The notes below the pieces were generated by a model. The model saw nothing but the letters and a program-made list of their open reading frames with translations, had not been told where the DNA came from and did not search any database. Shown here in pieces: positions 1 to 40,231 of a stretch of 64,000 nt of DNA (within the stretch, counting starts at the first letter, position 1; every line of letters begins with the position of its first letter). The DNA is from Escherichia coli (GTDB taxonomy: Bacteria > Pseudomonadota > Gammaproteobacteria > Enterobacterales > Enterobacteriaceae), in NCBI RefSeq assembly GCF_044324785.1, contig NZ_CP172127.1. The stretch is one strand, 5' to 3'. The position numbers were made by a program, and so were the translations under genes.

Positions 1-240
1 CAAAATATCTCGATGGATCTCCCGGAAACCCTGCAAAGCCAGGCGATGCTGGAAAAACTGATGCAGACTCGCGTGCGTAACCTGCTGGCACAACCGGCAG
101 CGGGGACAACGGAAGCTAAACCTGCACCTGCACCTGCACCTGCACCTGCACCTGCACCTGCACCTGCACCTGCACCTGCACCTGCACCTGCACCTGCACC
201 GCAAGCTGATACTCCGGCAGCCGCGCCGCAAGGAGAATAA
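1..240 (+). CDS. hemX: HemX C-terminal part (5' end lies upstream of the window), ends in a Pro-Ala repeat
   Basis: Open frame from position 1 to TAA at 238-240; sits immediately upstream of hemY as in the hemCDXY operon. Identity rests on synteny and the recalled operon, not on a search. Confidence 0.8.
121..198. repeat. Perfect hexanucleotide tandem repeat (CCTGCA) x13 encoding (Pro-Ala)13 inside hemX
   Basis: Counted directly: 13 uninterrupted CCTGCA units in frame, flanked by GAAGCTAAA and CCGCAAGCT. Confidence 0.97.
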
Positions 241-242
241 CC

Positions 243-1439
243 ATGCTAAAAGTGTTATTGCTCTTTGTTTTGCTGATTGCGGGGATAGTGGTTGGCCCGA
301 TGATTGCCGGTCATCAGGGTTACGTGCTGATCCAGACCGACAACTACAATATTGAAACCAGCGTCACTGGCCTGGCGATTATTTTGATTCTGGCGATGGT
401 AGTGCTGTTTGCCATTGAGTGGCTACTGCGGCGGATCTTCCGCACTGGCGCGCACACCCGTGGGTGGTTTGTCGGACGTAAGCGTCGCCGTGCCCGTAAG
501 CAGACCGAACAGGCGCTGCTGAAACTGGCGGAAGGCGATTATCAGCAAGTTGAAAAGCTGATGGCGAAAAATGCCGATCACGCTGAACAACCGGTGGTGA
601 ACTATCTACTGGCTGCCGAAGCCGCGCAACAACGTGGTGATGAAGCACGCGCCAACCAACATCTGGAACGCGCAGCGGAGCTGGCCGGCAACGACACAAT
701 TCCGGTAGAAATCACCCGTGTACGTCTGCAACTGGCCCGTAATGAAAACCATGCAGCACGTCACGGCGTTGATAAGCTGCTGGAAGTTACGCCACGCCAT
801 CCGGAAGTATTACGTCTGGCGGAACAGGCGTATATCCGCACAGGTGCATGGAGTTCGCTGCTGGATATCATCCCATCAATGGCGAAAGCCCACGTTGGCG
901 ATGAAGAACATCGTGCAATGCTGGAACAACAGGCATGGATTGGCCTGATGGATCAGGCGCGCGCCGATGACGGTAGCGAAGGTTTGCGAAACTGGTGGAA
1001 AAACCAAAGCCGGAAAACGCGTCATCAGGTGGCGTTACAGGTGGCAATGGCGGAACATCTTATTGAATGTGACGATCATGATACTGCTCAGCAAATTATC
1101 ATCGACGGCCTGAAACGCCAGTATGATGATCGTCTGCTGCTGCCGATCCCGCGTCTGAAAACCAATAACCCGGAACAGCTTGAAAAAGTGCTGCGCCAGC
1201 AAATCAAAAACGTCGGCGATCGCCCGCTGTTGTGGAGCACACTGGGTCAGTCGCTGATGAAGCACGGAGAATGGCAGGAAGCATCGCTCGCCTTCCGCGC
1301 AGCGCTGAAACAACGTCCGGACGCCTACGATTACGCATGGCTTGCCGACGCGCTGGACAGACTGCACAAGCCGGAAGAAGCCGCAGCGATGCGTCGCGAT
1401 GGCTTGATGTTAACGTTGCAGAACAACCCGCCACAGTAG
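243..1439 (+). CDS. hemY: HemY, 398 aa inner-membrane TPR-like protein
   Basis: 398 aa ORF with N-terminal hydrophobic segments; length and position after hemX match E. coli HemY. Confidence 0.93.
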   Translation: MLKVLLLFVLLIAGIVVGPMIAGHQGYVLIQTDNYNIETSVTGLAIILILAMVVLFAIEWLLRRIFRTGAHTRGWFVGRKRRRARKQTEQALLKLAEGDYQQVEKLMAKNADHAEQPVVNYLLAAEAAQQRGDEARANQHLERAAELAGNDTIPVEITRVRLQLARNENHAARHGVDKLLEVTPRHPEVLRLAEQAYIRTGAWSSLLDIIPSMAKAHVGDEEHRAMLEQQAWIGLMDQARADDGSEGLRNWWKNQSRKTRHQVALQVAMAEHLIECDDHDTAQQIIIDGLKRQYDDRLLLPIPRLKTNNPEQLEKVLRQQIKNVGDRPLLWSTLGQSLMKHGEWQEASLAFRAALKQRPDAYDYAWLADALDRLHKPEEAAAMRRDGLMLTLQNNPPQ

Positions 1440-1449
1440 TTCTTTCTCA

Positions 1450-1471
1450 CCCGGAGGCAAGCACCTCCGGG
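1450..1471 (+). terminator. GC-rich hairpin just after hemY stop, candidate hemY terminator
   Basis: CCCGGAGG / CCTCCGGG stem with 6-nt loop 11 nt after the stop; T-tract is weak. Confidence 0.4.
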
Positions 1472-1486
1472 ACCTTTCTGATACAT

Positions 1487-1693
1487 AAAAAAACGCCTGC
1501 TCTTATTACGGAGCAGGCGTTAAAACAGGTCTGTATGACAACAAGTGGGTGCTTCACTCAACGTTGTGTCCATGGTGTCTGATGAGGCATAAGCGACATC
1601 TGTCAGTGGACGATAAGCACCGTAAACGGCTCTGCGTCATTCCGGAGTTTATGAGGCACTAAGGCGAACATAAGAGATGGAATGAGCATCTAC
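1487..1693 (-). ncRNA. glmZ: GlmZ small RNA (about 207 nt) with intrinsic terminator at its 3' end
   Basis: Minus-strand sequence begins GUAGAUGCUCAUUCC and ends in a hairpin (stem 1493-1502 / 1511-1520) plus U7, matching the recalled GlmZ sequence; location between hemY and aslA matches the known locus. Confidence 0.8.
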
Positions 1694-2117
1694 TCGTTTA
1701 TTATGCCACAGAGAACCGGGAAATAACATCCCTTAACACTTGTTATGAGATAATTCTGTAATCCTCTTTGCTTCCTGAGTAATAACTTCCTGAGTGAATA
1801 TTTCTCCTGCGCACGATTCTACACATATATATAATGAATAATAAAAGTCATTCAATTAATAACATATATATTAATTGCCGTTAAAACTAAAAACAGCATC
1901 AATAATCAACGCGATATAACATCACCGCCTTACATATCACCTGCGCCAGAGGTAGGATTGAAAACGCTCTCCTGATTTTCCAATTCATTTTCTGGATAAA
2001 TAAATAATTTATTTTTATCACTATTATTTATGCAATCATCCTGTCAGGGAGAGGGATCTCAATTATCAATGCTTAATTACGTCAACATTTTGACGACATG
2101 AAACCGGAGCATTTTGC

Positions 2118-3773
2118 ATGGAATTTTCGTTTTCACCCAAACTTCTTGTTGTGGCTGTCGCCGCCGCTCTTCCACTCATGGCCAACGCAGCAGATACCCC
2201 GTCAACCGCCACCGCACGCAAAGGCTTTGCCGGATACGATCACCCAAACCAGTATCTGGTTAAACCGGCGACCACTATTGCCGACAACATGATGCCGGTG
2301 ATGCAGCATCCTGCACAAGACAAAGAAACCCAGCAGAAGCTGGCAGAACTTGAGAAAAAAACCGGTAAGAAACCGAACGTGGTTGTTTTCTTGCTGGATG
2401 ATGTGGGCTGGATGGATGTTGGCTTTAACGGCGGCGGCGTGGCGGTGGGTAACCCTACACCAGATATCGACGCCGTTGCCAGCCAGGGGCTGATTTTAAC
2501 TTCGGCGTATTCTCAACCGAGTTCTTCCCCAACCCGCGCCACGATTCTTACCGGACAATACTCCATCCACCACGGCATTCTGATGCCGCCAATGTACGGG
2601 CAACCGGGCGGTCTGCAAGGGTTAACCACTCTGCCGCAGTTGCTGCACGATCAGGGCTACGTCACTCAGGCCATCGGGAAATGGCATATGGGGGAAAACA
2701 AAGAGTCGCAGCCGCAGAACGTTGGCTTTGATGATTTCCGCGGCTTTAACTCGGTATCCGATATGTATACCGAATGGCGTGATGTTCACGTCAACCCGGA
2801 AGTCGCCCTGAGCCCGGATCGTTCTGAATACATCCAAAAACTGCCGTTCAGCAAAGATGACGTTCATGCCGTGCGCGGCGGTGAACAGGAAGCCATTGCC
2901 GACATTACGCCGAAATATATGGAAGACCTGGATCAACGCTGGATGGAATATGGCGTTAAGTTCCTCGACAAGATGGCGAAGAGCGATAAGCCTTTCTTCC
3001 TCTACTACGGCACTCGCGGCTGTCACTTCGATAACTACCCAAATGCGAAATATGCGGGTAGCTCTCCGGCGCGCACCTCTTACGGCGACTGCATGGTGGA
3101 GATGAACGATATCTTCGCCAATCTGTATAAAGCACTGGAGAAAAACTGTCAGCTTGATAACACGCTGATTGTGTTCACCTCTGATAACGGTCCGGAAGCC
3201 GAAGTTCCGCCGCACGGTCGCACACCGTTCCGCGGTGCGAAAGGTTCTACATGGGAAGGCGGCGTTCGTGTGCCAACCTTCGTTTACTGGAAAGGCATGA
3301 TCCAACCGCGTAAATCTGACGGCATTGTCGATCTGGCGGATCTCTTCCCTACGGCGCTGGATCTGGCGGGGCATCCTGGGGCGAAAGTAGCGAATTTAGT
3401 ACCGAAAACCACCTTTATCGATGGTGTGGACCAGACATCTTTCTTCCTGGGAACAAATGGTCAGTCTAACCGTAAGGCCGAGCACTACTTCCTCAACGGT
3501 AAACTTTCTGCTGTGCGTATGGATGAGTTCAAGTATCACGTCCTGATCCAGCAACCGTACGCGTATACCCAGAGCGGGTATCAGGGTGGATTCACCGGCA
3601 CAGTAATGCAAACGGCGGGATCGTCGGTGTTTAACCTGTACACCGATCCGCAGGAAAGCGACTCCATCGGCGTGCGCCATATCCCAATGGGTGTACCGCT
3701 ACAGACCGAAATGCACGCGTATATGGAGATCCTGAAAAAATATCCACCACGCGCGCAGATTAAATCTGATTAA
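2118..3773 (+). CDS. aslA: Arylsulfatase-family protein AslA, 551 aa with signal peptide
   Basis: 551 aa ORF; N-terminal signal-like segment and sulfatase-type motifs (LLDDVGW, sulfatase fold); length matches E. coli AslA. Confidence 0.92.
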
Positions 3774-3809
3774 GCCGGCGCTATCGCTACATCGGGCCAC
3801 ACTGACCTT

Positions 3810-3839
3810 GCCGGATGCGGCGTGAACGCCTTATCCGGC
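3810..3839. repeat. REP (repetitive extragenic palindromic) element
   Basis: GCCGGATGCGGCGTGAACGCCTTATCCGGC matches the E. coli REP consensus; lies between convergent aslA and aslB. Confidence 0.75.
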
Positions 3840-3851
3840 AATCAACCGCAG

Positions 3852-3876
3852 GCGGCCACAAAATGGCCGCTTTTTT
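3852..3876 (+). terminator. Intrinsic terminator after aslA, overlapping the aslB stop
   Basis: GCGGCCA / TGGCCGC stem with CAAAA loop followed by TTTTTT. Confidence 0.6.
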
Positions 3877-5110
3877 ACTTATTCACCACCATCAAATGCG
3901 CCTGCATAATGTCGCTGGCCGGACGACCGTGCGCCAGCAAATCAGCCATTGCTTTAAGATATGGCGGTAGATGGCGGAAATAACGCTGATACCCGGCACA
4001 CAAATAATTCAGCCCGGGTTTGCCGCTGGCATCGAGCATAAAGCGGTGTTTCGGACAGCCTCCCCAGCACGCTTTTAACACGTTGCAACTGCGACACTGC
4101 GCCGGTAACTGCTTAAATTTATCTTCACCAAACACCTGCTGTTGCGGGGAATCGATCATTTCTGCAATTGTTTGCTGGTGCATATTCCCCAGCCGATATT
4201 GCGGATAAACATAGTGATCGCAGGCGTAAACGTCGCCGTTGTGCTCAACAATCACCGAGCGCCCACAGGTTGGCTGATGATGGCAAACCGCACCTGGCGC
4301 ACCGACAAAATTGGCAAACGTCCATTCGATATTCATCACGAAAATCTTGCCGACGTCGCGTTTAATCCAGTGGTCGAATATCGCCACCAGAAATTCACCA
4401 AATTCATCGGGGCGCACCGACCATTCCGTCAGTTCGCCCTGAATATCGCCAGGCGCATGCAATTTCAGTCCATCGCGGGCAGCTGTTTCATCAGCCAGAC
4501 GCTCGACCACCGGAATAAACTGGATGAATTCCACTCCCGCATCGCACAAAAAATCATAAACCTGCAACGGTTGCTGCGCGCTGGTGCGGTTGACGCAGAC
4601 CAGCACGTTATAGTCGACATGATGTTTTTGCAGGAGCGTCAGGGCACGCATCACCAGCTTATGCGTTGGTCTGCCGCCTTTGGTCACGCGATATTGATTG
4701 TGGATCTCAGCCGGACCATCCAGCGATAACCCAACAAGAAAATGATTTTCTGCCAGAAATGCACACCATTCGTCATCAAGCAGAACGCCGTTAGTCTGGA
4801 AGCTGTTACTTATCTTCCTGCCAGCACCATATTTCGCCTGTAGCACCACGGCACGGCGGTAAAAATCCAGCCCGAGTAACGTTGGTTCGCCACCCTGCCA
4901 GGTAAAAGCCACTTCGTTTTGGGTTTCGCTGGCAGCGATATAGTGACGGACATACGCTTCCAGCGTGTCATCGTCCATATGAGTGACTGGCTTTTCGCGG
5001 TAAAGGGATTGTTTTTCGAGATAAAAACAGTAGTCACAGTTCAGATTACAATCGGAACCGCTCGGTTTCGCCATCACATGAAAAGCACGCGTTGGAACCT
5101 GTTGCAGCAT
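3875..5110 (-). CDS. aslB: Anaerobic sulfatase-maturating enzyme homolog AslB (radical SAM), 411 aa
   Basis: ORF with CxxxCxxC radical-SAM motif (CNLNCDYC). Start placed at ATG 5108-5110 (MLQQVPTRAF...) to match the recalled 411 aa; the ORF track start at 5140 is 10 codons longer. Confidence 0.88.
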   Translation of the reverse strand: MLQQVPTRAFHVMAKPSGSDCNLNCDYCFYLEKQSLYREKPVTHMDDDTLEAYVRHYIAASETQNEVAFTWQGGEPTLLGLDFYRRAVVLQAKYGAGRKISNSFQTNGVLLDDEWCAFLAENHFLVGLSLDGPAEIHNQYRVTKGGRPTHKLVMRALTLLQKHHVDYNVLVCVNRTSAQQPLQVYDFLCDAGVEFIQFIPVVERLADETAARDGLKLHAPGDIQGELTEWSVRPDEFGEFLVAIFDHWIKRDVGKIFVMNIEWTFANFVGAPGAVCHHQPTCGRSVIVEHNGDVYACDHYVYPQYRLGNMHQQTIAEMIDSPQQQVFGEDKFKQLPAQCRSCNVLKACWGGCPKHRFMLDASGKPGLNYLCAGYQRYFRHLPPYLKAMADLLAHGRPASDIMQAHLMVVNK

Positions 5111-5221
5111 GGTCGCTCCTTGCCTGAAGTCATCCTTCAATAAGTTAAGGGCGAAATCATACCGTGGCGCAATGAGTTATTACGGGCGTTTATTGCGAAG
5201 GGAAAGTGACGAAATGCACAG

Positions 5222-5250
5222 AAAACAAAAAACCCCGCCGAAGCGGGGTT
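5222..5250 (-). terminator. Intrinsic terminator of the argX-hisR-leuT-proM tRNA operon
   Basis: CCCCGC / GCGGGG hairpin followed on the minus strand by a U-rich run, directly 3' of tRNA-Pro. Confidence 0.7.
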
Positions 5251-5256
5251 CAAAAT

Positions 5257-5333
5257 TGGTCGGCGAGAGAGGATTCGAACCTCCGACCCACTGGTCCCAA
5301 ACCAGTTGCGCTACCAAGCTGCGCTACTCGCCG
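5257..5333 (-). tRNA. proM: tRNA-Pro (anticodon UGG)
   Basis: 77 nt; reverse complement reads CGGCGAGUAGCGCAGCUUGGUAGCGCAACUGGUUUGGGACCAGUGGGUCGGAGGUUCGAAUCCUCUCUCGCCGACCA; cloverleaf and anticodon loop read manually. Confidence 0.95.
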
Positions 5334-5375
5334 AAATACTGCTTTTTGAATTTTTAGTTCAATTCTTTAAAGTCG

Positions 5376-5462
5376 TGGTGCGAGGGGGGGGACTTGAACC
5401 CCCACGTCCGTAAGGACACTAACACCTGAAGCTAGCGCGTCTACCAATTCCGCCACCTTCGC
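5376..5462 (-). tRNA. leuT: tRNA-Leu (anticodon CAG), long variable arm
   Basis: 87 nt, 5' GCGAAGGUGGCGGAAUUGGUAGACGCG..., anticodon loop CUUCAGG, ends CCA. Confidence 0.95.
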
Positions 5463-5482
5463 ATTGTCACAACTTCTAATAA

Positions 5483-5559
5483 TGGGGTGGCTAATGGGAT
5501 TCGAACCCACGACAACTGGAATCACAATCCAGGGCTCTACCAACTGAGCTATAGCCACC
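5483..5559 (-). tRNA. hisR: tRNA-His (anticodon GUG) including the extra 5' G-1
   Basis: GUGGCUAUAGCUCAGUUGGUAGAGCCCUGGAUUGUGAUUCCAG...CCA read on the minus strand. Confidence 0.95.
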
Positions 5560-5616
5560 ACTACAAATCTTGTTACGCGGTATTACTACCACCGCAGCTC
5601 AAGCGCCGGGACTAAA

Positions 5617-5693
<77 letters not shown>

Positions 5694-5714
5694 TTAGCGC
5701 CGTTGCGGGGGTGG

Positions 5715-5743
5715 ATAATACGGACTTCCCACCCCTCTGTCTA
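5715..5743 (-). promoter_or_regulatory. Candidate sigma70 promoter of the tRNA operon (-35 TAGACA, 17 bp spacer, -10 TATTAT, GC-rich discriminator)
   Basis: Hexamers read on the minus strand about 20 nt upstream of argX; AT-rich UP-like tract further upstream. Confidence 0.5.
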
Positions 5744-5795
5744 GTCCCTTTTTAAATAAATTGCGCGTTTGGTTACGGTTTGTGCGTTTTGCTGC

Positions 5796-7181
5796 TTATT
5801 CCTCCAGTTTATGCGCTTTACCGTGGCGATTAAGCCCAAAAACTTTATAAATCGCCGTCACCGCCAGCATAAAGATGATGCCGACAAACAGCGACATACG
5901 CGTATCTTCATTAAAGTACATGCCGATCAAAACGCAAATCAGGAATGCCATTGTTACGTAGTTGGCCCACGGGAACAGGATTGAGCGGAACGGATGGCTG
6001 GCAATCGCCGCTTTATGCGCACGACGAAAACGCAGCTGGCTTATCAATATCACAAACCATGGCACCATCCCCGGAAGCACGCTGGCACTGTAGACGTAGA
6101 CAAACACACGCTGCGGATTGGGAATGACGTAGTTCAGGCATGAGCCAATTAACAGGATAGCAATAGATACTGCCACACCCGCAACCGGTACGCCGTGACG
6201 GGAAACTTTCGCCATCGCCGCCGGTAACTGACGGTTTTTCGCCAGTGCGTAGAGCATACGTCCGCAACTGTACATGCCGCTGTTACAGCCAGAGAGCGCA
6301 GCCGTCAGCACCACAAAGTTGATAATGCCCGCCGCTGCGGTAATACCGATTTTGGCGAAAGTCAGTACGAACGGGCTGCCGTTACTGCCTATTTCATTCC
6401 ACGGGAAGATGGTGACGATAACGAAAATCGCGCCTACGTAGAAAATCAGGATACGCCACAACACTTTGCCTACGGCACTGCGCAGCGTCACCTGCGGATT
6501 CTTCGCTTCACCGGCAGTAATGCCAATCAGCTCCACGCCCTGGTAGGACGCCACCACAATACACAATGCGGTCAGGAACCCTTTCCAGCCACCCGCAAAG
6601 AAACCGCCATGCTCTGTGAGATTGCTAAAACCAATCGACTGCCCGCCATTGCCAAAACCAAAGAAAATCACGCCCAGGCCAATGACAATCATCACGATAA
6701 TCGTGGTGACTTTGATCATCGCGAACCAGAACTCGATTTCGCCGTACAACCGCACCGCCGCCAGATTCGCCAGCGCCACCAGCGCCACCGCGATCAATGC
6801 GGGTATCCACTGCGCCATCTCCGGGAACCAGAACTGGACATAAACGCCAATGGCGGTGATTTCTGAGATCCCCACCGCCATCCACATAAACCAGTAAGAC
6901 CAGGCGGTGAGATAACCAAAGAACGGGCTCATATAACGATGCGCGTAAACGGCGAACGAACCGGTAACCGGTTCGAGGAACAACATTTCGCCCATTGAAC
7001 GCATGATGAAAAAGACGAACAGCCCGGCGATGATATAGGCCAACAATACGGATGGCCCGGCCCATTTCAGGGTACTGGCGGCCCCCATAAACAGGCCGAC
7101 GCCAATGGTGCCCCCCAGGGCGATGAGTTCGATATGTCGAGCTTCCAGCCCACGCTGTAGCTCTGGTTTGTTATCTGCCAT
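5796..7181 (-). CDS. yifK: APC-family amino acid permease YifK, 461 aa
   Basis: 461 aa polytopic membrane ORF with amino-acid permease signature; synteny next to the wec cluster. Confidence 0.9.
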
Positions 7182-7371
7182 AAATCCTCGTGTTGTGTTT
7201 GCATGCTTTCCGGTGTTACCGGTTATCGTTATGGGTACATCGAGTGTTGCGAATGTTTTCGTAATTCAGGAGAAATGGCAAATAAAGCATTAAAAATTTG
7301 AATGCTTTGTGTAATAAAAAAGCAGACAGGCGACGAAGTGACCACTCCGTCGCTTTACAAAGAGAGGAAAA

Positions 7372-8112
7372 TCAGAGGTTGCCGGTGTAATGCCAGCGTA
7401 AATAACGCAGCAAACGAAGCTGACGCTTAATGCGGCTCGGCTGCGAAAGTAGGCGGTAGAGCCACTCCAGCCCCAGCGTTTGCCAGATTTTCGGTGCGCG
7501 TTTCACGTGACCGGTGAAAACATCGTAAGTCCCGCCAACGCCCATATACAGCGCATCCGGATGCACCAGACGGCAGTCGCGCATGAAGATCTCCTGCTTT
7601 GGCGATCCCATCGCAACGGTGACGATTTGCGCTCCACTGGCATGAATGCGTTCAAACAGCGCCTGACGCTGCTCGGGTTTAAAATAACCATCCTGACTGC
7701 CAACGATATTCACATTCCACTGATTGCGCAGTTTAGCTTCAGTTTGCGCCAGCACTTCATGTTTACCGCCTACAAGAAATACCGGCGTCCCTTCTTTGCC
7801 TGCGCGCGCCATCAGCTCTTCCCAGAGATCGGCCCCGGCAACGCGGGAAACCTGCGCCTGCGGGTACTTTTTACGTACTGAACGTACAACGCTGATGCCA
7901 TCCGCATATTTAAATTCGGCAGCGTTAATTAACTCCCGGACCTCGGCGTTATCTTCAATGGTCAGCATTTTTTCGGCATTAATGGCAACCAGCGTTCCCT
8001 GCTTAAGCTGCCCGTCAGCGAACAGATAATCGAGGGCGTGCTGCATATCACGCCAACCAATCAACTGTAAGCCACGCAGCGTATAGGTCGGTGCCGTGGT
8101 ATTGTTATTCAT
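7372..8112 (-). CDS. wecG: UDP-N-acetyl-D-mannosaminuronic acid transferase (ECA synthesis), 246 aa
   Basis: 246 aa ORF, last gene of the ECA cluster by synteny. Confidence 0.9.
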
Positions 8113-8114
8113 TG

Positions 8115-9467
8115 TTATCCTTCAACCTGCGTCCGGAGCGATGATTTTGTTCGTTTATGAATGAGTCCGGCGCTTTCAAAAAGCCAGTACAACAGTTTTG
8201 CGATCATCAGACATGCGCCGAAGACCACGATAAAAAAGACCACGCGTGAGACAAACGAATCCAGCCCTTCACGCGCCAGCACGATCATATTGAAGATCGC
8301 CCCAAAGCAGAAACTGTGCAATATCGCAGCCTTATAGCGATTAGTCTCTCGGTTGCCCAGCTCATACAGCCAGTCGAACCATTTGATGATCAGTCCAACC
8401 ACGATCGCCCCGAGCGGGATGAACAACGCGCCGCCCATAACAACCAGTGAGCCTATAAGCGTAGGCGAGATCGCCAGCCCGGAGTGGTTATTCAGCACTT
8501 CCCAGGTAAAGTAGTTGGCGGAGTTCAGTACCATACTCGGGCGACCCGGCCACAGCCAGGAAGGGATAAAGACATAGAAATCGCGGACAATGGGAGCCAG
8601 ACCCTGGAAGTCGATGTTGTCGTAGTTCTGCAACAGCAATGCCAGATTCTCCCACGGCGAAAAGGTATCGCGGGTGAGATAGAGAAACGTATAGAACGCT
8701 TCATCACCGCTCACATTCATTCCATAGCGTTTTAGCGCCAGCCAGAACATGCCAACAATCCCCAGCACGCCCGCTGCCGCCAGCATCCACAACGAAATCC
8801 AGCCGCGAATAATGCCAATAAACAGGAAGATAGCGAATGCGATGATGATATTGGCGCGAGTGCCGCCGACAATCATATAAGTCAGCAAGCCAAAAGCGAC
8901 CGTGCTGACGAGGAAAAACAGCCACGCTTTGCTGTCCTGGCGCAGAAAGTAGACCACCAGCATCGCCGGGATGAAAAAGTAAAAGAAGCGTTTTAACGCC
9001 ACGCCGGAGACTTCACTGGAGAAGATCTGACTGTAGGAGTTAAGCCGGAACAGCAAAAAGCCGTTGTGCATGAAGAAGATGCCGACGCTTACCAGCGCGA
9101 TGCCCATCAGGATCACCCACGTAAGATTGGTCTCCACGCGGTTCATGGTAAACAGCGGACGGCGCGGTACATCAGCAACGCGTTTGCGTAGGCGGGTTTT
9201 GTAGGTGACGTAGTAAACCGCGTAGAAGCAGCCCGCAGAAAGCAACGCCTGCAACAAGATTTCTGGCGGCGCGACACCAACATCAAAGCGAAATACCAGC
9301 ACGCTGGTCAGCGGGAAGCCGAAGAAAAAGGTGAGCAAAAACAGCAATGAAAAGAAGACATTGAAGTTAAAGCGCACACGGCGAAACTCAAACCAGGTCA
9401 GCGTGGCAATAAACAACGTACAGAGCAGCCAGACAACAAACAGGCCACTGAATTGCAGCAGACTCAT
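8115..9467 (-). CDS. wzyE: ECA polymerase WzyE, 450 aa polytopic membrane protein
   Basis: 450 aa highly hydrophobic ORF; position in cluster. Confidence 0.9.
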
Positions 9468-10543
9468 GCGACCTCCCCGGCGGCAATAGCCAACGCCCGC
9501 TGCCAGCCTTGCAGATAGTTCGGGCTAAAGAAGGCAATGGTGTTTTTATCCACCGACGCCAACTGGCGCTGCGCTTCACGCACAATATCCTCGTTGAGAT
9601 CATCGGTAGTAAACAGTACTGGCAAATGCTGTTCCGTCATATCCTGCCAGAACGGATTTTCCCGGTTAAGCACACAAGGAATGCCCGCCTGAATCAGTAA
9701 GCAAAGCGTACCAATGCCCTGCTGGCGGGCAAAAATAAAGTAACCGAGATCGCACTGGCGAAGTAGCGTCAGATAGGCGTCAAATTCCAGTTTTTCGCTC
9801 AGAACTTGTAGATTTTCTTCGCTGAATAACTCCAGTCCCGCCTGACGAACTTCCTCGATGTACGCTTCGTTATTAGGCGGATATCCCATCGGCACCACCA
9901 CTTTTACCGTATCGCCAAATTGCTGATGAACGGCGCGCAAGGCAGCAATATGCTCATTGCTGCGGTCACCGGAGTTCCCCACCAGAATGGTCATTTTTCC
10001 TTCACGTTGCCGATCGTTCGCCATCGTATTAAGAGAAGGGTCCATCCGCGTCGGGAAGTACAGCAGTTCTCCCCGCACCTTTGGATGCGTTTTGGCAAAA
10101 AAGCTCAAATCACCGCGGGTGGCAAATACACAGCCGACTCTCTTTTGCGCCAAGCGACGTAGCGGGTAAAAAAGCTTATATCTCAAGCCACTGGAAAGCT
10201 CGTACAGGTCTGCCCCCCAGATATGCCAGTAAAACTGGCTGGGCTTAATGCCACCACTCAGCAGAGCCAGCCACAGTGTGGGATTGAACTGACCGTGGAA
10301 GAAAAAACGCTGCTGACGGTTAGCTTTTGCTTTCGCGATGACCGCTTCCGCCAGCGATTTTTTCCCAGGGAAAAATTGCACAGAAAGCGTCGGACAGCTA
10401 TCACTTAAGCCGTCGTCCTTGCCAACAACCATAAACTCGCGCGCGTGCTCGCTCGTCGCGGCCAGCGCGTCATTGAAAAACCGCAAAACGGTTCGGTTAT
10501 GGTGAGGGATATCCGATCCCAGTACGTGAATCAGTACAGTCAT
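9464..10543 (-). CDS. wecF: TDP-Fuc4NAc:lipid II 4-alpha-L-fucosaminyltransferase, 359 aa
   Basis: 359 aa ORF; 4-bp overlap with wzyE; synteny. Confidence 0.9.
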
Positions 10544-11790
10544 GCCCGCCTACGCCAGAGTAAAAACACGCCACAACAAAGAGAAAAATAGACGATATAA
10601 GTTGCCATATATGCCTGCGCCGCGCCCAGTGCACCATGCGCAGGGATTAGCCAGTGGGCAAATACCATCAATAAAGTGAACTGGCTGACTTCCGCCAGAA
10701 TATAAAACCGCAATGACGCTTTGGCGATCACCAGATAACCAAAGACATAAGCGCCCACTTTTAACACATCACCCACCAACTGCCAGGCAAAGAGATCGCG
10801 CATAGCGGTAAATTTATTCGACAACAGCAGCCAGATAGCAAAATCACGCAGCAACCAGACGGTAAAACTCGCCGCCGCCACTGCCGGTAAGACGAATTTC
10901 AGCGATTTAACCACTTCCCGGGTGATATCGCGCTTTTCCGTTAGCCGCGACAACGTGGGCAGCAAATATACGCTGAACGATGCCGTAATAAATTGCAGGT
11001 AGGCATCGGAAATACTACTCACCCCTTGCCAGATCCCCACTTCATCCCAGCTATACTGCGCCGCCAGCAGTTTACGCATCATGATGTAAGCAACGGGCAA
11101 GGTCACCGACGTAATCAACGCCATGAGCGTAAATTTGCTCAACTGCCCTGCCAGGCCGTTATCCCAGCTGGGTTTCAGATAGCTTAACGGGATTGCACCA
11201 CGCTTAATTAGCATGATGACGGCAGGAATCACCACCAGCGCGGGAATCAACGCCAGCCCCAGCAACGCCCCTTCATAACCGCCCAAACGGTAACTGACGT
11301 AGTACGCGAGAACGCCAATCAGGCTGCCGACAATCAGGGATAACGCATTACCTGCGGCATCGCGAAAGCCTTTCATCAACGCCAGTAACAGGTTGCCCCA
11401 GGCGATCCCCATTTGCACCAACGCCACTAAACGCACCAGCCCCTGATAGTCGGTATTACCAAACAATCCCTGGCTAATTGGGGCTGCCGCTAGCACAAAA
11501 ACCAGCGCCATCAGCGTAGAGAAGCCAAGTACCATCGCTGATGAAGTGCCTACCACGCGGCGCAGCTGCTGCGGATTATCATGGTACTGAGCAACGTATT
11601 TGGTTACGCCATTAAAGATGCCCGCCCCGGCAAGCACGCCGAGCACGGTAATCAACTGGCGGAAATTTGCCGCCAGCCCAAGCCCCGCAGGACCAAATGA
11701 CACCGCCAGCAACTTACCTACCAGTAACCCGGCACCAATCTTGACCAGTGTACTGGCCGCCGTCCACAAGGACGCTTTTGCCAACGACAT
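10540..11790 (-). CDS. wzxE: ECA lipid III flippase WzxE, 416 aa
   Basis: 416 aa polytopic membrane ORF; synteny. Confidence 0.9.
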
Positions 11791-11791
11791 A

Positions 11792-12922
11792 TCAGGAGAA
11801 GTAGTTCAACAAGGTCGCAATTACCGTGCGCTGATTGACGGGCGACAGGTTGTAGAACAACGGCAGGCGCAGCAGGCGCTCGCTCTCTTTGGTGGTGTAG
11901 CGATCTTCACCGTGGAACTCACCAAAGCGTTCCCCCGCAGGGCAACCGTGCAGCGGAATGTAATGGAACACCGCCATGATTTCCGCTTCTTTCAGAAAGT
12001 TAATCAACGCGCTCCGGTCATCAATATCCCGCAGTTTAATGTAGAACATATGCGCGTTCTGCACGCAGCCATCGGGAATCGACGGCAGCTCGATACGCCC
12101 GGCTTTCGCCAGAGGTGCTAACGCATCGTAGTAGTTTTGCCACAGCGCCAGACGTTGCTGATTGATACGATCCGCTGCTTCCAGTTGCGCCCACAGGTAC
12201 GCAGCTTGCAGATCGGACATCAAATAGCTGGAGCCGATATCGCGCCAGGTATATTTATCGACCTGACCACGGAAGAACTGGCTGCGGTTAGTGCCTTTTT
12301 CACGGATGATCTCGGCGCGTTCGATCAACGCTTTATCGTTAATCAGCGTCGCACCGCCTTCACCGCCCGCCGTGTAGTTTTTGGTTTCATGGAAGCTAAA
12401 GCAGCCAATATGACCAATGGTTCCCAGTGCACGCCCTTTGTAAGTGGACATCACGCCCTGAGCGGCATCTTCCACCACAAACAGATTATGCTTTTTCGCC
12501 AACGCCATAATGGTGTCCATTTCGCAGGCCACACCCGCGTAATGGACCGGTACGATAACGCGCGTTTTGTCGGTGATCGCTGCTTCAATCAACGTTTCGT
12601 CGATGTTCATGGTGTCCGGGCGAACATCCACAAAAACGATTTTCGCGCCACGCAGCACAAAGGCATTGGCGGTGGAGACAAAGGTGTAGCTCGGCATGAT
12701 CACTTCATCGCCAGGCTGGATATCGAGCAGCAGCGCCGCCATCTCCAGCGAAGCGGTGCAGGATGGCGTCAGTAACACTTTGGCGCTGCCAAAACGTTGC
12801 TCCAGCCACTGCTGGCAGCGACGGGTAAAACCGCCATCGCCGCACAGTTTGCCGCTACCCATTGCCGACTGCATATAGTCGAGTTCGGTTCCCACCACCG
12901 GCGGTGCGTTAAATGGAATCAT
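11792..12922 (-). CDS. wecE: dTDP-4-amino-4,6-dideoxygalactose transaminase, 376 aa
   Basis: 376 aa ORF of the DegT/aminotransferase type; synteny. Confidence 0.9.
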   Translation of the reverse strand: MIPFNAPPVVGTELDYMQSAMGSGKLCGDGGFTRRCQQWLEQRFGSAKVLLTPSCTASLEMAALLLDIQPGDEVIMPSYTFVSTANAFVLRGAKIVFVDVRPDTMNIDETLIEAAITDKTRVIVPVHYAGVACEMDTIMALAKKHNLFVVEDAAQGVMSTYKGRALGTIGHIGCFSFHETKNYTAGGEGGATLINDKALIERAEIIREKGTNRSQFFRGQVDKYTWRDIGSSYLMSDLQAAYLWAQLEAADRINQQRLALWQNYYDALAPLAKAGRIELPSIPDGCVQNAHMFYIKLRDIDDRSALINFLKEAEIMAVFHYIPLHGCPAGERFGEFHGEDRYTTKESERLLRLPLFYNLSPVNQRTVIATLLNYFS

Positions 12923-12926
12923 GTGA

Positions 12927-13601
12927 TCACCTGTATAACCAGTACGCGGTGCTTTCTACATTCGCACCACTTTGTATGTATCGTTTTAGCGCGGCGGTGT
13001 TGCCCATTTGGGTCGCCACCCGCAAAGTTGTTTTACCGCGAGCATACGCCCAGTTTAGCGCCGTTTGCATCAGCTCAGCACCTGCACCTCGTCCAGCCAG
13101 CAGGCCAATTCGCGCATCTGTCGCATTGAGTTCCCGTAAAGAGACATAGCCGCGAATATCGCCGGACGCCGCACGTAAAATCAGACATTGATGATCAAAG
13201 GTGCCGCGCACGGCATTTTCAATCCACTGTGCATAAAAGCGTCCGCTGGCGTCAGGCGCATACCACGGCGCACGAAAACGGCTTTGCGCAAATGCGGCGC
13301 TGGCTAACTGACGTAATGCGGGAATATCGGTCTCTTGTGCCACTACAGCACCACTATCACTGACATTGTTCACGGGTAGCGCCAAATCAACTTCACCTTC
13401 TACCAGGGAGAATCCCAGCTGTTGCAGGGCATCCAGTTCACCCGTATTTGATGCCGCAATTTTGGCCTGTACCCGTGACCACGGCGCTAAGGTGTCTGAC
13501 GTCAGGAGCGGTGCTTCAGGCGTGATGCGCACGATGGCGCTGTTAACACCAAAGAAGGCGTTTTCCCAGGTTAGTGGCTCAATACTGGCGCGGACGGGCA
13601 C
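12927..13601 (-). CDS. wecD: dTDP-fucosamine acetyltransferase (GNAT); start codon uncertain
   Basis: 224 aa as the longest ORF, whose 5' end overlaps the rffH 3' end by 23 nt; a shorter in-frame start is possible. Confidence 0.75.
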
Positions 13602-14460
13602 GAAGTAACTCCAGCAGATATTGGCCGTAGCCGGTTTTCGCCAGCGAGCTGGCGGCGCGCTTCACGCCTTCGTCATCAAGCCAGCCGTTACGCCAGGCGA
13701 TCTCTTCCAGGCAGGCAATCTTAAAGCCCTGGCGTTTTTCTACCGTCTGTACAAAGGTACTGGCTTCAATCAGGCTGTCGTGAGTACCGGTGTCCAGCCA
13801 GGCAAATCCGCGCCCGAGCAGTTCAACGGTCAGGTTACCCGCCTCGAGGTACATCTGGTTGATGGAGGTAATCTCCAGTTCACCACGCTCCGACGGCTTC
13901 ACCTGCTTTGCGTACTCCACGACTTTACTGTCGTAGAAATAAAGTCCGGTCACCGCCCAGTTTGACTTCGGCTGTTTTGGCTTTTCTTCCAGCGAGATAG
14001 CGCGGAAATTGTCGTCAAACTCCACGACGCCAAAGCGTTCCGGATCCATCACCTGATAGCCAAATACCGTCGCGCCTTGCGTGCGCGCCGCAACATGACG
14101 CAACTTCGGACTGAAGCCCTGTCCGAAGAAGATGTTATCGCCCAGCACCAGACAAGAAGGTTCACCGTTGAGGAAGGTTTCACCGATGATAAAGGCCTGC
14201 GCCAGACCGTCCGGACTGGGCTGTTCGGCATATTCCAGCTGGATACCGAACTCACTACCATCGCCCAGCAGGCGCTGGAAATAACCTTTATCTTCCGGCG
14301 TAGTGATGATGAGAATTTTGCGGATACCGGCCAGCATCAGCACCGACAGCGGATAGTAAATCATTGGCTTATCGTAAATCGGCAACAGTTGCTTCGATAC
14401 GCCGCGCGTAATCGGATGCAATCGGGTACCGGAACCGCCTGCCAGGATAATACCTTTCAT
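13579..14460 (-). CDS. rffH: Glucose-1-phosphate thymidylyltransferase, 293 aa
   Basis: N-terminal GGSGTRL nucleotidyltransferase motif; 293 aa. Confidence 0.92.
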
Positions 14461-14478
14461 GTTTGCCTCCGCTGAAAA

Positions 14479-15546
14479 TTAGCCTTTCAGACCTAAACGC
14501 TCGCCCTGATAGCTACCGTCCTGCACCTGCTTCCACCAGCTTTCATTAGCCAGATACCACTGCACCGTTTTACGCATTCCACTTTCAAAGGTTTCCTGCG
14601 GCAGCCAGCCAAGTTCACGGGCAATTTTCGAAGCATCAATGGCATAACGCAGATCATGCCCCGGACGGTCAGCGACAAAGGTGATCAGGTCACGATAGTG
14701 CGCCACGCCGTGCGGCTTGTTCGGGGCCAGTTCTTCCAGCAACTCGCAAATGGTTTCCACAACATCGAGATTCTTACGCTCGTTGTGACCACCAATATTA
14801 TAGGTTTCACCGACTTTCCCGGTGGTCGCCACGCAATACAGCGCGCGGGCGTGATCTTCCACATACAGCCAGTCACGGATTTGCTGCCCGTTGCCATATA
14901 CCGGCAGCGGTTTACCCGCCAGCGCGTTGAGGATCATCAGCGGGATCAGTTTTTCCGGAAAGTGGTAAGGACCGTAGTTATTCGAGCAGTTGGTGATAAG
15001 CGTCGGCAGACCATAGGTCCGCAGCCAGGCGCGTACCAGATGGTCGCTGCTGGCTTTTGAAGCGGAATAAGGGCTGCTCGGCGCATACGGCGTGGTTTCG
15101 GTGAAGAAATCATCCGTCGAGTGCAGGTCACCATATACTTCGTCGGTGGAAATATGATGAAAACGGAACGCTGATTTTTTATCTTCCGTCAGCGCATTCC
15201 AGTAAGTCCGCGCCGCTTCAAGCAATGTATAAGTCCCGACAATGTTGGTTTCAATAAACGCTGCCGGGCCGTCAATAGAACGGTCAACATGGCTTTCGGC
15301 TGCCAGATGCATGACACAGTCTGGCTGATGCTCAGTGAATACGCGCGCCAGTTCTGCCCGATCGCAGATATCAACTTTCTCAAAGGCAAAGCGCTCGCTT
15401 TGCGCGACCGGTGCCAGCGACATCAGATTTCCGGCGTAGGTCAGCTTATCGACCACTATCACCGCGTCGCTCGTTTCGTTGATGATATAACGCACCAGCG
15501 CTGAGCCAATAAACCCGGCACCACCTGTTATCAGAATCTTTCTCAT
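14479..15546 (-). CDS. rffG: dTDP-glucose 4,6-dehydratase, 355 aa
   Basis: N-terminal TGGAGFIGS Rossmann motif; 355 aa. Confidence 0.92.
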
Positions 15547-16808
15547 CAGCGCCAGACTCCTTTGGCATCGACGACATACTGCTGATGGACATTGTCGCCA
15601 TTGATAACTTTGAACTGACTATGATCGACCAGCATCACCAGCACGTCTGCCGTTGCCAGCGCCTCGTCAAGCTGCGCCAGAGTACAAAGCCCAGTCAGTT
15701 TCTTCGGCAACTGGTGGATGTTAGGCTCAACAACCAGCGTTTCGCCGCTGTGCCACTGGGCGATCAGTTCAGCGATTTCCATCGCCGGGCTTTCGCGCAG
15801 GTCATCAATATTCGGTTTAAACGCCAGACCAAAGCAGGCGATTTTCAGTTCGCTGGCGCGTTTATCGGTAGCCGCCAGGCAGTCGGCAACCGCCGCTTTC
15901 ACCTGATCGATAACCCAGAACGGTTTGTGATCGTTCACTTCGCGCGCGGTACGGATAAGCCGCGCCTGCTGGGGGTTCTGTGCCACGATAAACCACGGAT
16001 CAACAGCGATGCAGTGGCCGCCCACGCCAGGGCCAGGCTGAAGAATATTGACGCGAGGGTGACGATTCGCCAGGCGAATCAGTTCCCAGACGTTAATTCC
16101 CTGATCGGCACAAATCAGCGACAATTCATTAGCAAAAGCGATATTCACATCGCGGAAGCTGTTTTCGGTGAGCTTACACATTTCCGCCGTCCGCGAGTTA
16201 GTGACGACACACTCACCTTCGAGGAAAATTTTGTACAGTTCGCTGGCGCGGGCCGAACAAACCGGCGTCATACCACCAATCACGCGATCGTTTTTAATCA
16301 GCTCGACCATAACCTGGCCCGGTAACACGCGTTCCGGGCAGTAAGCAATGTTGACGTCCGCCTGCTCGCCCACCTGCTGTGGGAAAGTGAGATCCGGACG
16401 CATCTCTGCTAACCATTCTGCCATCTTCTCGGTTGACCCCACCGGCGAGGTGGATTCAAGGATCACCAGCGCGCCTTTTTTCAGCACTGGCGCAATGGAG
16501 CGAGCAGCCGATTCAACGTAGGTCATATCTGGCTCATGATCGCCTTTAAACGGCGTGGGTACAGCAATCAGCCAGGCATCCGCTTCAACTGGCGTCGTGC
16601 TCGCTCGTAAAAAACCGCCTTCTACGGCAGTTTTTACTACGCTCGCCAAATCAGGTTCGACGATATGGATTTCGCCACGATTGATGGTATCAACCGCATG
16701 TTGGTTGATATCGACACCAATCACCTGTTTTTGCCGTGAGGCAAACGCTGCTGCTGTAGGCAGCCCGATGTAACCCAGTCCGATAACAGAAATGGTCGCA
16801 AAACTCAT
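15546..16808 (-). CDS. wecC: UDP-N-acetyl-D-mannosamine dehydrogenase, 420 aa
   Basis: N-terminal GLGYIG nucleotide-binding motif; 420 aa. Confidence 0.92.
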
Positions 16809-17935: not shown

Positions 17936-17990
17936 ATCGATTCTCTTCGAATAAGCGGCGAGCGCCTTTGCGCTCACCGCAGCAGTGTTG

Positions 17991-19037: not shown

Positions 19038-19048
19038 CACATCCTCAT

Positions 19049-21965: not shown

Positions 21966-22295
21966 TTACGCCAGGTTAGCGTCGAGGAACTCTTTCAACT
22001 GACCTTTAGACAGTGCGCCCACTTTGGTTGCCGCCACTTCACCGTTTTTGAACAGCAGCAGAGTCGGGATACCACGGATACCATATTTCGGCGCAGTGCC
22101 AGGGTTTTGATCGATGTTCAGTTTTGCAACGGTCAGTTTGCCCTGATATTCGTCAGCGATTTCATCCAGAATCGGGGCGATCATTTTGCACGGACCGCAC
22201 CACTCTGCCCAGAAATCGACGAGGATCGCCCCGTCCGCTTTGAGTACATCCGTGTCAAAACTGTCGTCAGTCAGGTGAATAATTTTATCGCTCAT
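21966..22295 (-). CDS. trxA: Thioredoxin 1, 109 aa
   Basis: Start at [13 protein letters not shown]...; WCGPC active site; the ORF track adds 35 upstream codons. Confidence 0.95.
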
Positions 22296-22425
22296 ATATA
22301 ACTCCACAGGAATAAGCCTGGCGTGTTGGTTTCGTTGTTGGTGTAACATTAACCAACTTAAGGTTGACTTTATTTCACCGGATACGCTTTCGTAAAGCAA
22401 TAGTAAGCTGATATTCTACCACACT

Positions 22426-36623: not shown

Positions 36624-36674
36624 TTAGTTCCCCGTCCTGAATCTTGAGAAACAGAATTTTGTGCTGTTATTCAT
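36624..36674 (-). CDS. ilvX: Small peptide IlvX, 16 aa
   Basis: Manually translated [16 protein letters not shown] between the attenuator and ilvG, matching the recalled ilvX peptide. Confidence 0.55.
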
Positions 36675-36703
36675 TGTCTGCTCCTCGGTTATGTTTTTAA
36701 GGT

Positions 36704-40223: not shown

Positions 40224-40231
40224 AATTAGGG

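What the first reader, a model, noticed from the sequence alone, without database searches (positions are those of the whole stretch)
1487..1693. GlmZ small RNA in the hemY-aslA spacer, absent from the ORF track
The minus strand carries a roughly 207-nt unit that starts GUAGAUGCUCAUUCC and ends in a hairpin plus U7. This matches my recollection of GlmZ, the Hfq-independent sRNA that activates glmS translation together with GlmY and RapZ. It explains much of an otherwise empty 678-bp spacer.
Basis: partly seen in the sequence, partly recalled or inferred. Interest (0 to 1): 0.35.

Follow-up and report, generated by a model that had tools for sequence, protein, structure and literature searches.

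The report
GlmZ small RNA gene, already known

Summary
Window 1487-1693 (minus strand) is glmZ. Rfam's GlmZ_SraJ model matches exactly these coordinates end to end (218.4 bits against a cut-off of 60, E 3e-56). The 207 nt are 100% identical to glmZ (b4456) of E. coli K-12, with the same 5' end, and at least 99% identical in 5424 of 5426 complete E. coli genomes. The surrounding spacer and the neighbouring genes hemY and aslA differ from K-12 by 3.6-5.6%.

An independent alignment of 65 Enterobacterales homologues supports three stem-loops. Of 39 pairs, 18 show compensatory changes, and 99.7% of cells are paired against 35-45% when the partners are slid. The 26-nt single-stranded region between the second stem-loop and the terminator pairs with positions -41 to -21 of the glmS leader. 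That target is invariant in every E. coli leader examined. hemY lies convergent just downstream, the conserved synteny.

As published for E. coli, the promoter is sigma-70 type, and the sigma-54 motif found in 59 of 68 other loci is absent.

GlmZ depends on Hfq; the Hfq-independent one is its paralogue GlmY. RapZ does not help activation; it hands GlmZ to RNase E for inactivation.

Novelty: none. Interest: low.

The parts
1487..1693 (-). glmZ, the full-length primary transcript (207 nt). The 5' end (+1) is at window 1693 and the 3' end at 1487.
   Evidence: Rfam RF00083 scores 218.4 bits over model positions 1-214 at exactly these coordinates. The sequence is 207/207 identical to K-12 glmZ b4456, with the same 5' end. 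The published primary transcript is 207 nt (PMC4152352).
1629..1693 (-). Stem-loop 1 (GlmZ nt 1-65). It is one of the two RapZ contact surfaces.
   Evidence: Rfam consensus domain. The consensus fold of 66 sequences pairs nt 6-15 with 51-61, nt 21-25 with 41-45 and nt 29-30 with 37-38; 100% of cells are paired in the basal helix, with 2 compensatory pairs. Five Rfam pairs in the apical part are non-canonical on this sequence, and the MFE and consensus-fold register is used instead. The RapZ contacts come from the cryoEM paper PMC9841335.
1548..1621 (-). Stem-loop 2 (GlmZ nt 73-146), the central stem-loop recognised by RapZ and RNase E.
   Evidence: In the basal helix (nt 73-79 with 140-146), 6 of 7 pairs have compensatory changes and 100% of cells are paired. 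The inner helix is nt 83-86 with 123-126. The functional role comes from PMC4737144 and PMC9841335 and is inferred here from sequence identity.
1522..1547 (-). Single-stranded region (GlmZ nt 147-172, 26 nt). It holds the glmS-pairing seed, the main Hfq contact and the RNase E cleavage site.
   Evidence: It is exactly 26 nt, as published (PMC4737144). It is unpaired in the consensus fold and folds at only -1.2 kcal/mol, no better than shuffles. The blocks GUUGUC and GACCUG are 77-100% conserved across 66 sequences.
1537..1544 (-). Pairing arm 1 (GlmZ nt 150-157, UUGUUGUC), which pairs with glmS leader GACAACGA. The published processing site at about nt 151 (window about 1543) lies in this arm.
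   Evidence: Duplex prediction with the glmS leader -60..-1 gives -19.2 kcal/mol; 6 of 1000 shuffled spacer regions and 4 of 1000 shuffled targets do as well. The processed form is about 151 nt (PMC4152352); its position here is inferred by identity.
1525..1531 (-). Pairing arm 2 (GlmZ nt 163-169, GACCUGU), which pairs with glmS leader ACAGGUU.
   Evidence: Nt 163-168 are 97-100% conserved in 66 Enterobacterales sequences.
1492..1521 (-). Stem-loop 3, the intrinsic terminator hairpin (GlmZ nt 173-202, 11 bp).
   Evidence: The terminator scan gives 11 pairs, 7 of them G-C, with an 8-nt loop. Seven of the 9 consensus pairs have compensatory changes. The fold of nt 147-207 has z = -5.0.
1487..1491 (-). 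Five unpaired 3'-terminal U residues: the termination signal and the second Hfq contact.
   Evidence: Read directly from the sequence. [quoted passage not shown]
1700..1708 (-). Sigma-70 promoter, extended -10 element: TG at -15/-14 (1708-1707) and CATAAT at -12..-7 (1705-1700).
   Evidence: Read from the sequence and identical to K-12. E. coli glmZ has a single, constitutive sigma-70 promoter, and mutating the -10 motif abolishes expression (PMC3045617). The assignment of these particular bases is my inference. The simple consensus scan missed this promoter because its -35 element is weak.
1724..1729 (-). Candidate -35 hexamer ATGTTA (-36..-31, 3 of 6 matches to TTGACA, 18-nt spacer).
   Evidence: This is an inference from the sequence. 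It is consistent with the paper's statement that three bases of the -35 match TTGACA and that sequence upstream of -40 is dispensable (PMC3045617). The only difference from K-12 within 110 nt upstream is G for A at window 1716 (-23), in the promoter spacer.
1450..1471 (+). Context: a hairpin on the hemY strand (CCCGGAGG-CAAGCA-CCTCCGGG), probably the terminator of the hemCDXY operon, 15 nt from the glmZ 3' end.
   Evidence: -16.9 kcal/mol, with 4 of 200 shuffles as good. E. albertii carries a compensatory G-C to A-U change. The U tract is weak, so the scan did not call it.
243..1439 (+). Context: hemY, convergent with glmZ.
   Evidence: NCBIfam NF008017 HemY, 829.8 bits. RefSeq annotation.
2118..3773 (+). 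Context: aslA (arylsulfatase), divergent from glmZ.
   Evidence: RefSeq annotation of near-identical genomes. Weak sulfatase family hits.

Best explanation
Window 1487-1693 (minus strand) is the gene for GlmZ (formerly SraJ/RyiA), a 207-nt trans-acting small RNA.

The mechanism below is established for the identical K-12 molecule and is inferred here from sequence identity plus the computed features.
1. Transcription starts at window 1693 from a constitutive sigma-70 promoter and ends at the SL3 terminator.
2. Full-length GlmZ, bound by Hfq through its 26-nt single-stranded region and its U tail, pairs with positions -41 to -21 of the glmS leader.
3. That stretch is the 5' half of a hairpin that hides the glmS ribosome-binding site. 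Pairing opens the hairpin, so glmS is translated and its mRNA is stabilised.
4. When glucosamine-6-phosphate is plentiful, the adaptor protein RapZ binds SL1 and SL2 and presents GlmZ to RNase E. RNase E cuts in the single-stranded region at about nt 151 and removes the pairing site.
5. When glucosamine-6-phosphate is scarce, the paralogous decoy RNA GlmY accumulates and sequesters RapZ, so GlmZ stays intact.
For: - Family match: Rfam GlmZ_SraJ scores 218.4 bits (cut-off 60), E 3.4e-56, full model, at the exact coordinates.
- Identity: 207/207 identical to curated K-12 glmZ with the same 5' end.
- Selective conservation: there are 0 differences in these 207 nt against 26 in the other 471 nt of the spacer (Fisher p = 1e-4), 43/1197 in hemY and 93/1656 in aslA. 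The RNA is at least 99% identical in 5424 of 5426 complete E. coli genomes, and 95-100% column identity across four Escherichia lineages against 30-88% in the flanks.
- Structure: an alignment of 66 sequences made without reference to structure gives 39 consensus pairs, 18 of them with compensatory changes. 99.7% of cells are paired, against 35-45% when partners are slid by 1-3 columns, and 0 of 500 shuffles reach the covariation score.
- Seed: the single-stranded region is 26 nt and unstructured, and pairs with the glmS leader at -19.2 kcal/mol (4-6 of 1000 shuffles as good). Blocking the target nucleotides abolishes the leader hairpin over the ribosome-binding site.
- Target: the target and the hairpin are invariant in four E. 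coli leaders, including the window's closest relative.
- Synteny: hemY is convergent downstream in 59 of 70 homologous loci, and 10 of the other 11 hold too little downstream sequence to tell.
- Promoter: sigma-70 type with no sigma-54 motif, as published for E. coli.
- Mechanism: PMC4737144, PMC4152352, PMC9841335, PMC3045617.
Against: Nothing found here argues against it. There are limits to what was shown.
- No expression data exist for this strain, so transcription, the 5' and 3' ends, and processing are inferred from identity to K-12.
- glmS, rapZ, glmY and hfq lie outside the window, so their presence in this genome is assumed, not shown.
- The duplex energy is significant only at about the 0.5% level against shuffles.
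- Five apical SL1 pairs of the Rfam consensus are non-canonical on this sequence; a different register, found by both the MFE fold and the consensus fold, replaces them.
- The promoter carries one substitution relative to K-12, at -23.
Confidence: 0.98

Rival explanations
1. It is the paralogue GlmY (a decoy RNA that only sequesters RapZ), not the base-pairing RNA GlmZ.
For: GlmY and GlmZ share 66% identity and the same SL1/SL2 fold, and they belong to one Rfam clan (PMC4737144; clan CL00011).
Against: GlmZ_SraJ is the best-scoring model of the clan at this site. The sequence is identical to K-12 glmZ, not glmY. The single-stranded region is 26 nt and complementary to glmS, whereas GlmY's is 12 nt with no complementarity. 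The locus sits next to hemY, whereas glmY lies upstream of glrK.
Confidence: 0.005
2. It is a silent or decaying copy: the sequence is glmZ, but in this somewhat divergent lineage it is not expressed or not functional.
For: No expression data exist for this strain. There is one promoter-spacer substitution relative to K-12 at -23. Over 20 kb the lineage is only 98.4-99.5% identical to any complete E. coli genome.
Against: There are no substitutions in 207 nt while the flanks have diverged by 3.6-5.6%, which is the opposite of decay. The -10, TG and candidate -35 elements are identical to K-12. E. albertii and a divergent E. coli also vary in the promoter spacer while keeping the hexamers. The target site is intact in the closest relative.
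Confidence: 0.01
3. The stretch encodes a small protein: a 28-codon ORF starts at the AUG at nt 5 of the RNA.
For: The ORF MLIPSLMFALVPHKLRNDAEPFTVLIVH exists in the window sequence.
Against: There is no room for a ribosome-binding site, because the leader is 4 nt. ORF length ranges from 9 to 67 codons among 66 homologues and the frame is broken in 31 of 65. Substitutions are spread evenly over the three codon positions (303/271/260). The same nucleotides covary as RNA helices.
Confidence: 0.005

Closest known systems
GlmZ (SraJ/RyiA, b4456) of Escherichia coli K-12; Rfam RF00083
   Same: All 207 nt, the 5' end, the terminator, the 26-nt single-stranded region, the promoter hexamers, and the position between aslA and hemY.
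   Different: Nothing in the RNA itself. There is one base in the promoter spacer (G for A at -23) and 25 further differences elsewhere in the spacer. The K-12 RefSeq record annotates only 172 nt, ending before the terminator hairpin, whereas the literature and Rfam give 207 nt (PMC4152352).
GlmY (SroF/Tke1), the paralogous decoy RNA
   Same: Homologous SL1 and SL2, both bound by RapZ, within the same glucosamine-6-phosphate feedback circuit (PMC4737144, PMC9841335).
   Different: GlmY has a 12-nt single-stranded region with no complementarity to glmS. [quoted passage not shown] The window element has none of these GlmY features.
Sigma-54/GlrR-dependent glmZ genes of Yersinia, Salmonella and most other Enterobacterales
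   Same: The same RNA family, fold, seed blocks and hemY synteny.
   Different: 59 of 68 evaluable homologous loci carry TGGCAY-N5-NTGC at a fixed position, starting at -27 or -28. The window, E. albertii, a divergent E. coli and a few other genera lack it and have only a sigma-70 extended -10 element. This agrees with PMC3045617.
glmS ribozyme of Gram-positive bacteria
   Same: Analogous purpose: feedback control of glmS expression by glucosamine-6-phosphate (PMC4152352).
   Different: An unrelated mechanism. It is a cis-acting, self-cleaving element in the mRNA, not a trans-acting small RNA, and there is no sequence or structural relationship.

Membership tests
GlmZ_SraJ (Rfam RF00083) | The covariance-model score reaches the family's gathering threshold over the full model. 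| tested here: met
   218.4 bits against a threshold of 60, E 3.4e-56, model positions 1-214 of 214, not truncated. The same result was obtained on the 801-nt sub-window.
GlmZ_SraJ (Rfam RF00083) | The architecture SL1 - SL2 - single-stranded region - terminator SL3, supported by covariation. | tested here: met
   The consensus fold of 66 sequences has 39 pairs, 18 with compensatory changes. 99.7% of cells are paired against 35-45% for slid controls, and 0 of 500 shuffles reach the covariation score. The module lengths match the published ones, including the 26-nt single-stranded region.
GlmZ_SraJ (Rfam RF00083) | The single-stranded region is complementary to the 5' half of the hairpin that masks the ribosome-binding site in the glmS leader. 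| tested here: met
   GlmZ nt 150-157 and 163-169 pair with glmS -40 to -22 at -19.2 kcal/mol, and 4-6 of 1000 shuffles do as well. Blocking the target nucleotides removes the leader hairpin. The target is invariant in four E. coli leaders. glmS itself is not in the window.
GlmZ_SraJ (Rfam RF00083) | Conserved position: convergent with hemY at the end of the hemCDXY operon. | tested here: met
   The window has hemY at 243-1439 (+) and glmZ at 1693-1487 (-). 59 of 70 homologous loci have the same arrangement, and it is stated as conserved in PMC3045617.
GlmZ_SraJ (Rfam RF00083) | Hfq binding through the single-stranded region and the 3' oligo(U) tail, and Hfq-dependent activation of glmS. | not testable with these tools
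   The sequence modules are present and identical to those tested experimentally (PMC4737144). Binding itself cannot be computed.
GlmZ_SraJ (Rfam RF00083) | RapZ-dependent cleavage by RNase E at about nt 151, which removes the pairing site. | not testable with these tools
   Inferred from 100% identity of SL1, SL2 and the single-stranded region to the K-12 molecule used in the cleavage and cryoEM studies (PMC4737144, PMC9841335).
GlmZ_SraJ (Rfam RF00083) | The RNA is transcribed as an independent unit of about 207 nt. | not testable with these tools
   No transcriptome data are available. The promoter elements are identical to the experimentally mapped K-12 promoter and the terminator is strong.
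GlmY_tke1 (paralogue, same Rfam clan) | A short (12-nt) single-stranded region with no glmS complementarity, and a position upstream of glrK/qseE. | tested here: not met
   The single-stranded region is 26 nt and complementary to glmS. The neighbours are hemY and aslA. GlmZ is the best model of the clan at this site.

The most novel reading that the evidence does not exclude
The most novel reading still open concerns regulation, not the RNA. In this lineage the upstream region differs from K-12 at -23, in the promoter spacer, and in a cluster at -111 to -172. These changes might alter glmZ expression, or the AT-rich 424-bp region shared by aslA and glmZ might hold an undescribed regulatory element. 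Nothing found here points to either. The region upstream of -40 is dispensable for the K-12 promoter (PMC3045617), and the only repeat seen there is not conserved in other Escherichia.
Probability: 0.03. Interest if true: 0.2.

Novelty: already known. Interest (0 to 1): 0.04.

Why it matters
For discovery it does not matter: this is a textbook small RNA, found in 2001 and since dissected down to a cryoEM structure of its complex with RapZ and RNase E.

Two practical points follow.
1. The automated RefSeq annotation of the roughly 5,400 complete E. coli genomes searched shows no feature under this sequence in the records sampled. The curated K-12 record annotates only 172 of the 207 nt. A scan that works from the protein-gene track will therefore keep flagging this spacer as 'empty'.
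2. The case is a useful positive control for the scan. A reader with no tools recovered the right gene, strand and both ends to the base.

Tried and rejected
- Promoter scan: the sigma-70 consensus scan found no promoter for glmZ, because the -35 element is too weak for its threshold. The promoter was assigned by eye and from the literature instead.
- First duplex scripts: one failed on a file name and one timed out.
- Whole-leader duplex: pairing GlmZ nt 141-177 against the whole leader gave an artefactual structure with very long internal loops. It was redone on the 26-nt single-stranded region against -60..-1.
- Rfam structure: mapped onto this sequence, 5 of its 48 pairs (all in apical SL1) are non-canonical and its energy is only -18.5 kcal/mol. 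It was therefore not used for the covariation test; the consensus fold of an independent MAFFT alignment was used.
- Genome-collection scan: the 5'-end pattern returned 120 loci. 50 were chance matches in unrelated phyla, as expected for 16 specified bases, and were dropped. 70 had GlmZ-like similarity beyond the seed.
- Trimming: four homologues were cut short at an internal T run and one had no detectable terminator. All five were left out.
- Small-protein reading: rejected.
- Direct repeat: ACTCAGGAAG x2 at about -83 to -107 looked like a possible operator, but it is not conserved in E. albertii or in a divergent E. coli.
- Sub-threshold Rfam hits in the spacer (ncr1175, SNORA68, Thr_leader; E 0.2-0.9) all lie on the terminator hairpins and are chance.

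Full report
**1. Observation**

The minus strand of window 1487-1693 is 207 nt. It begins GUAGAUGCUCAUUCC and ends with an 11-bp, G+C-rich hairpin (1521-1492) and a run of U (terminator scan). There are seven T at 1493-1487. Two of them pair with the AA at the foot of the stem and five remain free.

hemY (243-1439, +; NCBIfam HemY, 829.8 bits) and aslA (2118-3773, +) flank the element, so the spacer 1440-2117 is 678 bp, as stated. The RNA occupies 31% of the spacer.

**2. Identity**

- Rfam: a scan of the whole window places the GlmZ_SraJ model (RF00083) at exactly 1487-1693 on the minus strand. The score is 218.4 bits against a gathering score of 60, with E 3.4e-56 and the model matched from position 1 to 214. 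A more permissive scan of the spacer adds only chance-level hits on the terminator hairpins.
- K-12: the curated record annotates the ncRNA glmZ (b4456) between aslA and hemY. Its 5' end corresponds to window 1693, and the 207 nt are identical. The RefSeq feature is only 172 nt long and stops before the terminator, whereas the literature gives a 207-nt primary transcript and a processed form of about 151 nt (PMC4152352).
- Other E. coli: the 207 nt are at least 99% identical in 5424 of 5426 complete genomes, and the records sampled show no annotated feature under the match.

**3. Selective conservation**

Against K-12 there are no differences in the 207 nt. There are 26 in the other 471 nt of the spacer (Fisher p = 1e-4), 43 of 1197 in hemY and 93 of 1656 in aslA.

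In a four-way alignment of the window, K-12, E. albertii and a divergent E. coli, column identity is 95-100% inside the RNA and 30-88% in the flanks. The window belongs to a somewhat unusual E. coli lineage. Over its first 20 kb the best complete genome is 99.5% identical (strain N3) and the next is 98.4%.

**4. Structure, tested independently of Rfam**

A pattern taken from the 5' end only was scanned against one genome per species. It returned 120 loci, of which 70, all Enterobacterales, have GlmZ-like similarity beyond the seed. The other 50 are the chance matches expected for 16 specified bases.

Sixty-five trimmed homologues were aligned with the window by MAFFT, without any structure information. 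RNAalifold predicts 39 pairs in three stem-loops and leaves the stretch before the terminator unpaired. Eighteen pairs show compensatory double changes.

The pair counts with controls were as follows.
- 99.7% of cells are paired, against 35-45% when the 3' partners are slid by 1-3 columns.
- 152 cells have a change on both sides, against 3-22 in the slid controls.
- 0 of 500 shuffles reach the observed covariation score.

The base of SL2 (6 of 7 pairs) and the terminator (7 of 9 pairs) carry most of the covariation. The base of SL1 is nearly invariant, which says nothing for or against it.

Mapped onto this sequence, the Rfam consensus has five non-canonical pairs in apical SL1. The MFE fold and the consensus fold agree on a different register there.

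**5. Function-bearing features**

The region between SL2 and SL3 is nt 147-172, exactly the 26 nt reported (PMC4737144). On its own it is unstructured, at -1.2 kcal/mol and no better than shuffles.

It pairs with the K-12 glmS leader through two arms. UUGUUGUC (nt 150-157) pairs with GACAACGA, and GACCUGU (nt 163-169) pairs with ACAGGUU. Together they cover leader positions -41 to -21 at -19.2 kcal/mol, and 4-6 of 1000 shuffles do as well. In the leader those nucleotides form the 5' half of a hairpin over the ribosome-binding region, and blocking them removes the hairpin.

Across the 66 sequences, the blocks GUUGUC and GACCUG are 77-100% conserved while the positions between them vary.

glmS is not in the window. 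The last 52 nt of the leader are nonetheless invariant in K-12, in strain N3 (the window's closest relative) and in two of the most divergent E. coli leaders. All differences among these leaders lie further upstream.

**6. Promoter and context**

Upstream of +1 the window reads TG-G-CATAAT, with TG at -15/-14 and the hexamer at -12 to -7, and a weak candidate -35 element, ATGTTA. All of these are identical to K-12. The only difference within 110 nt is G for A at -23.

59 of 68 evaluable homologous loci carry a sigma-54 type TGGCAY-N5-NTGC motif at a fixed position. The window, E. albertii, a divergent E. coli and a few other genera do not.

This reproduces the published finding that E. coli glmZ has a single, constitutive sigma-70 promoter that GlrR does not bind, and that sequence upstream of -40 is dispensable (PMC3045617).

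hemY lies convergent downstream in 59 of 70 loci, and 10 of the other 11 hold too little downstream sequence to tell. aslA is upstream in only four. The paper likewise describes the upstream side as variable.

**7. Mechanism**

The mechanism is taken from the literature on the identical molecule and inferred here.
- Hfq-bound full-length GlmZ opens the inhibitory hairpin of glmS, which activates translation and stabilises the mRNA.
- RapZ binds SL1 and SL2 and presents the single-stranded region to RNase E, which removes the seed.
- GlmY sequesters RapZ when glucosamine-6-phosphate is low (PMC4152352, PMC4737144, PMC9841335).

GlmZ binds Hfq at about 10 nM and depends on it, while GlmY is the weak binder. 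RapZ acts against GlmZ, not with it.

**8. Rivals**

- GlmY is excluded by the model score, the identity to glmZ, the length and complementarity of the single-stranded region, and the synteny.
- A decaying copy is the opposite of what the conservation pattern shows.
- The 28-codon ORF that starts at nt 5 is not conserved. Its frame is broken in 31 of 65 homologues, its length ranges from 9 to 67 codons, and there is no third-position bias.

**9. Verdict**

It is of low interest, apart from being a clean positive control and a reminder that it is missing from, or shortened in, standard annotation.

Noticed in passing
window 1522-1693 versus 1487-1693: The curated K-12 RefSeq record annotates glmZ as 172 nt, ending before the terminator hairpin, although the published primary transcript is 207 nt. 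The PGAP-annotated E. coli genomes sampled have no feature at all under this sequence.
   Followed up: yes
window 1450-1471 (+ strand): A strong hairpin (CCCGGAGG-CAAGCA-CCTCCGGG, -16.9 kcal/mol) lies 10 nt after the hemY stop codon and 15 nt from the glmZ 3' end, and E. albertii has a compensatory G-C to A-U change in it. It is probably the hemCDXY terminator, so two convergent terminators sit back to back. Its U tract is weak.
   Followed up: partly
window about 1776-1800 (minus strand, about -83 to -107 of glmZ): The direct repeat ACTCAGGAAG-TTATT-ACTCAGGAAG is identical in K-12 but not kept in E. albertii or in a divergent E. coli, so it is probably not a conserved regulatory site.
   Followed up: partly
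window 1804-1865 and 1920-1926: The differences from K-12 cluster in the AT-rich (25-33% GC) divergent region between aslA and glmZ. The first 110 nt upstream of glmZ have a single difference, at 1716.
   Followed up: partly
window 1-20000: The window comes from an unusual E. coli lineage. Only 4 of about 5,400 complete genomes are at least 99% identical over 20 kb. The best is strain N3 at 99.5%, and the next is 98.4%. aslA differs from K-12 by 5.6%.
   Followed up: partly
window 36641-36930 (-): There is a strong Rfam hit to 'Rev39_5p_UTR' (157 bits). The stretch is 98.6% identical to K-12 3950251-3950540, which covers ilvL and the start of ilvX. It is therefore the ilvXGMEDA leader/attenuator under another family name.
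   Followed up: partly
window 22266-22365 (-): Rfam TrxA_thermometer hit (78.7 bits), presumably the 5' UTR of trxA.
   Followed up: no
window 40151-45374 (-) and 5260-5693 (-): A complete rRNA operon: 16S, a tRNA, a StyR-44 hit in the spacer at 43486-43594, 23S, 5S and two distal tRNAs. By its position relative to glmZ it is probably rrnC. There is also a four-tRNA cluster downstream of aslB.
   Followed up: no
L124 19261-26046 (E. coli strain N3, near glmS): The window's closest sequenced relative carries type III effector genes (espY4 and another) a few kb downstream of glmS-pstSCAB-phoU, which suggests an attaching-and-effacing or EPEC-like background for this lineage.
   Followed up: no
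L009, L103, L108 (Yersinia glmZ loci): Yersinia GlmZ carries an insertion of about 15 nt in the apical loop of SL1. The Photorhabdus/Providencia/Morganella group has a different sequence (CCGUCU) in place of the GUUGUC pairing arm and an extra AUUG after GACCUG. The seed has therefore diverged in Morganellaceae.
   Followed up: no
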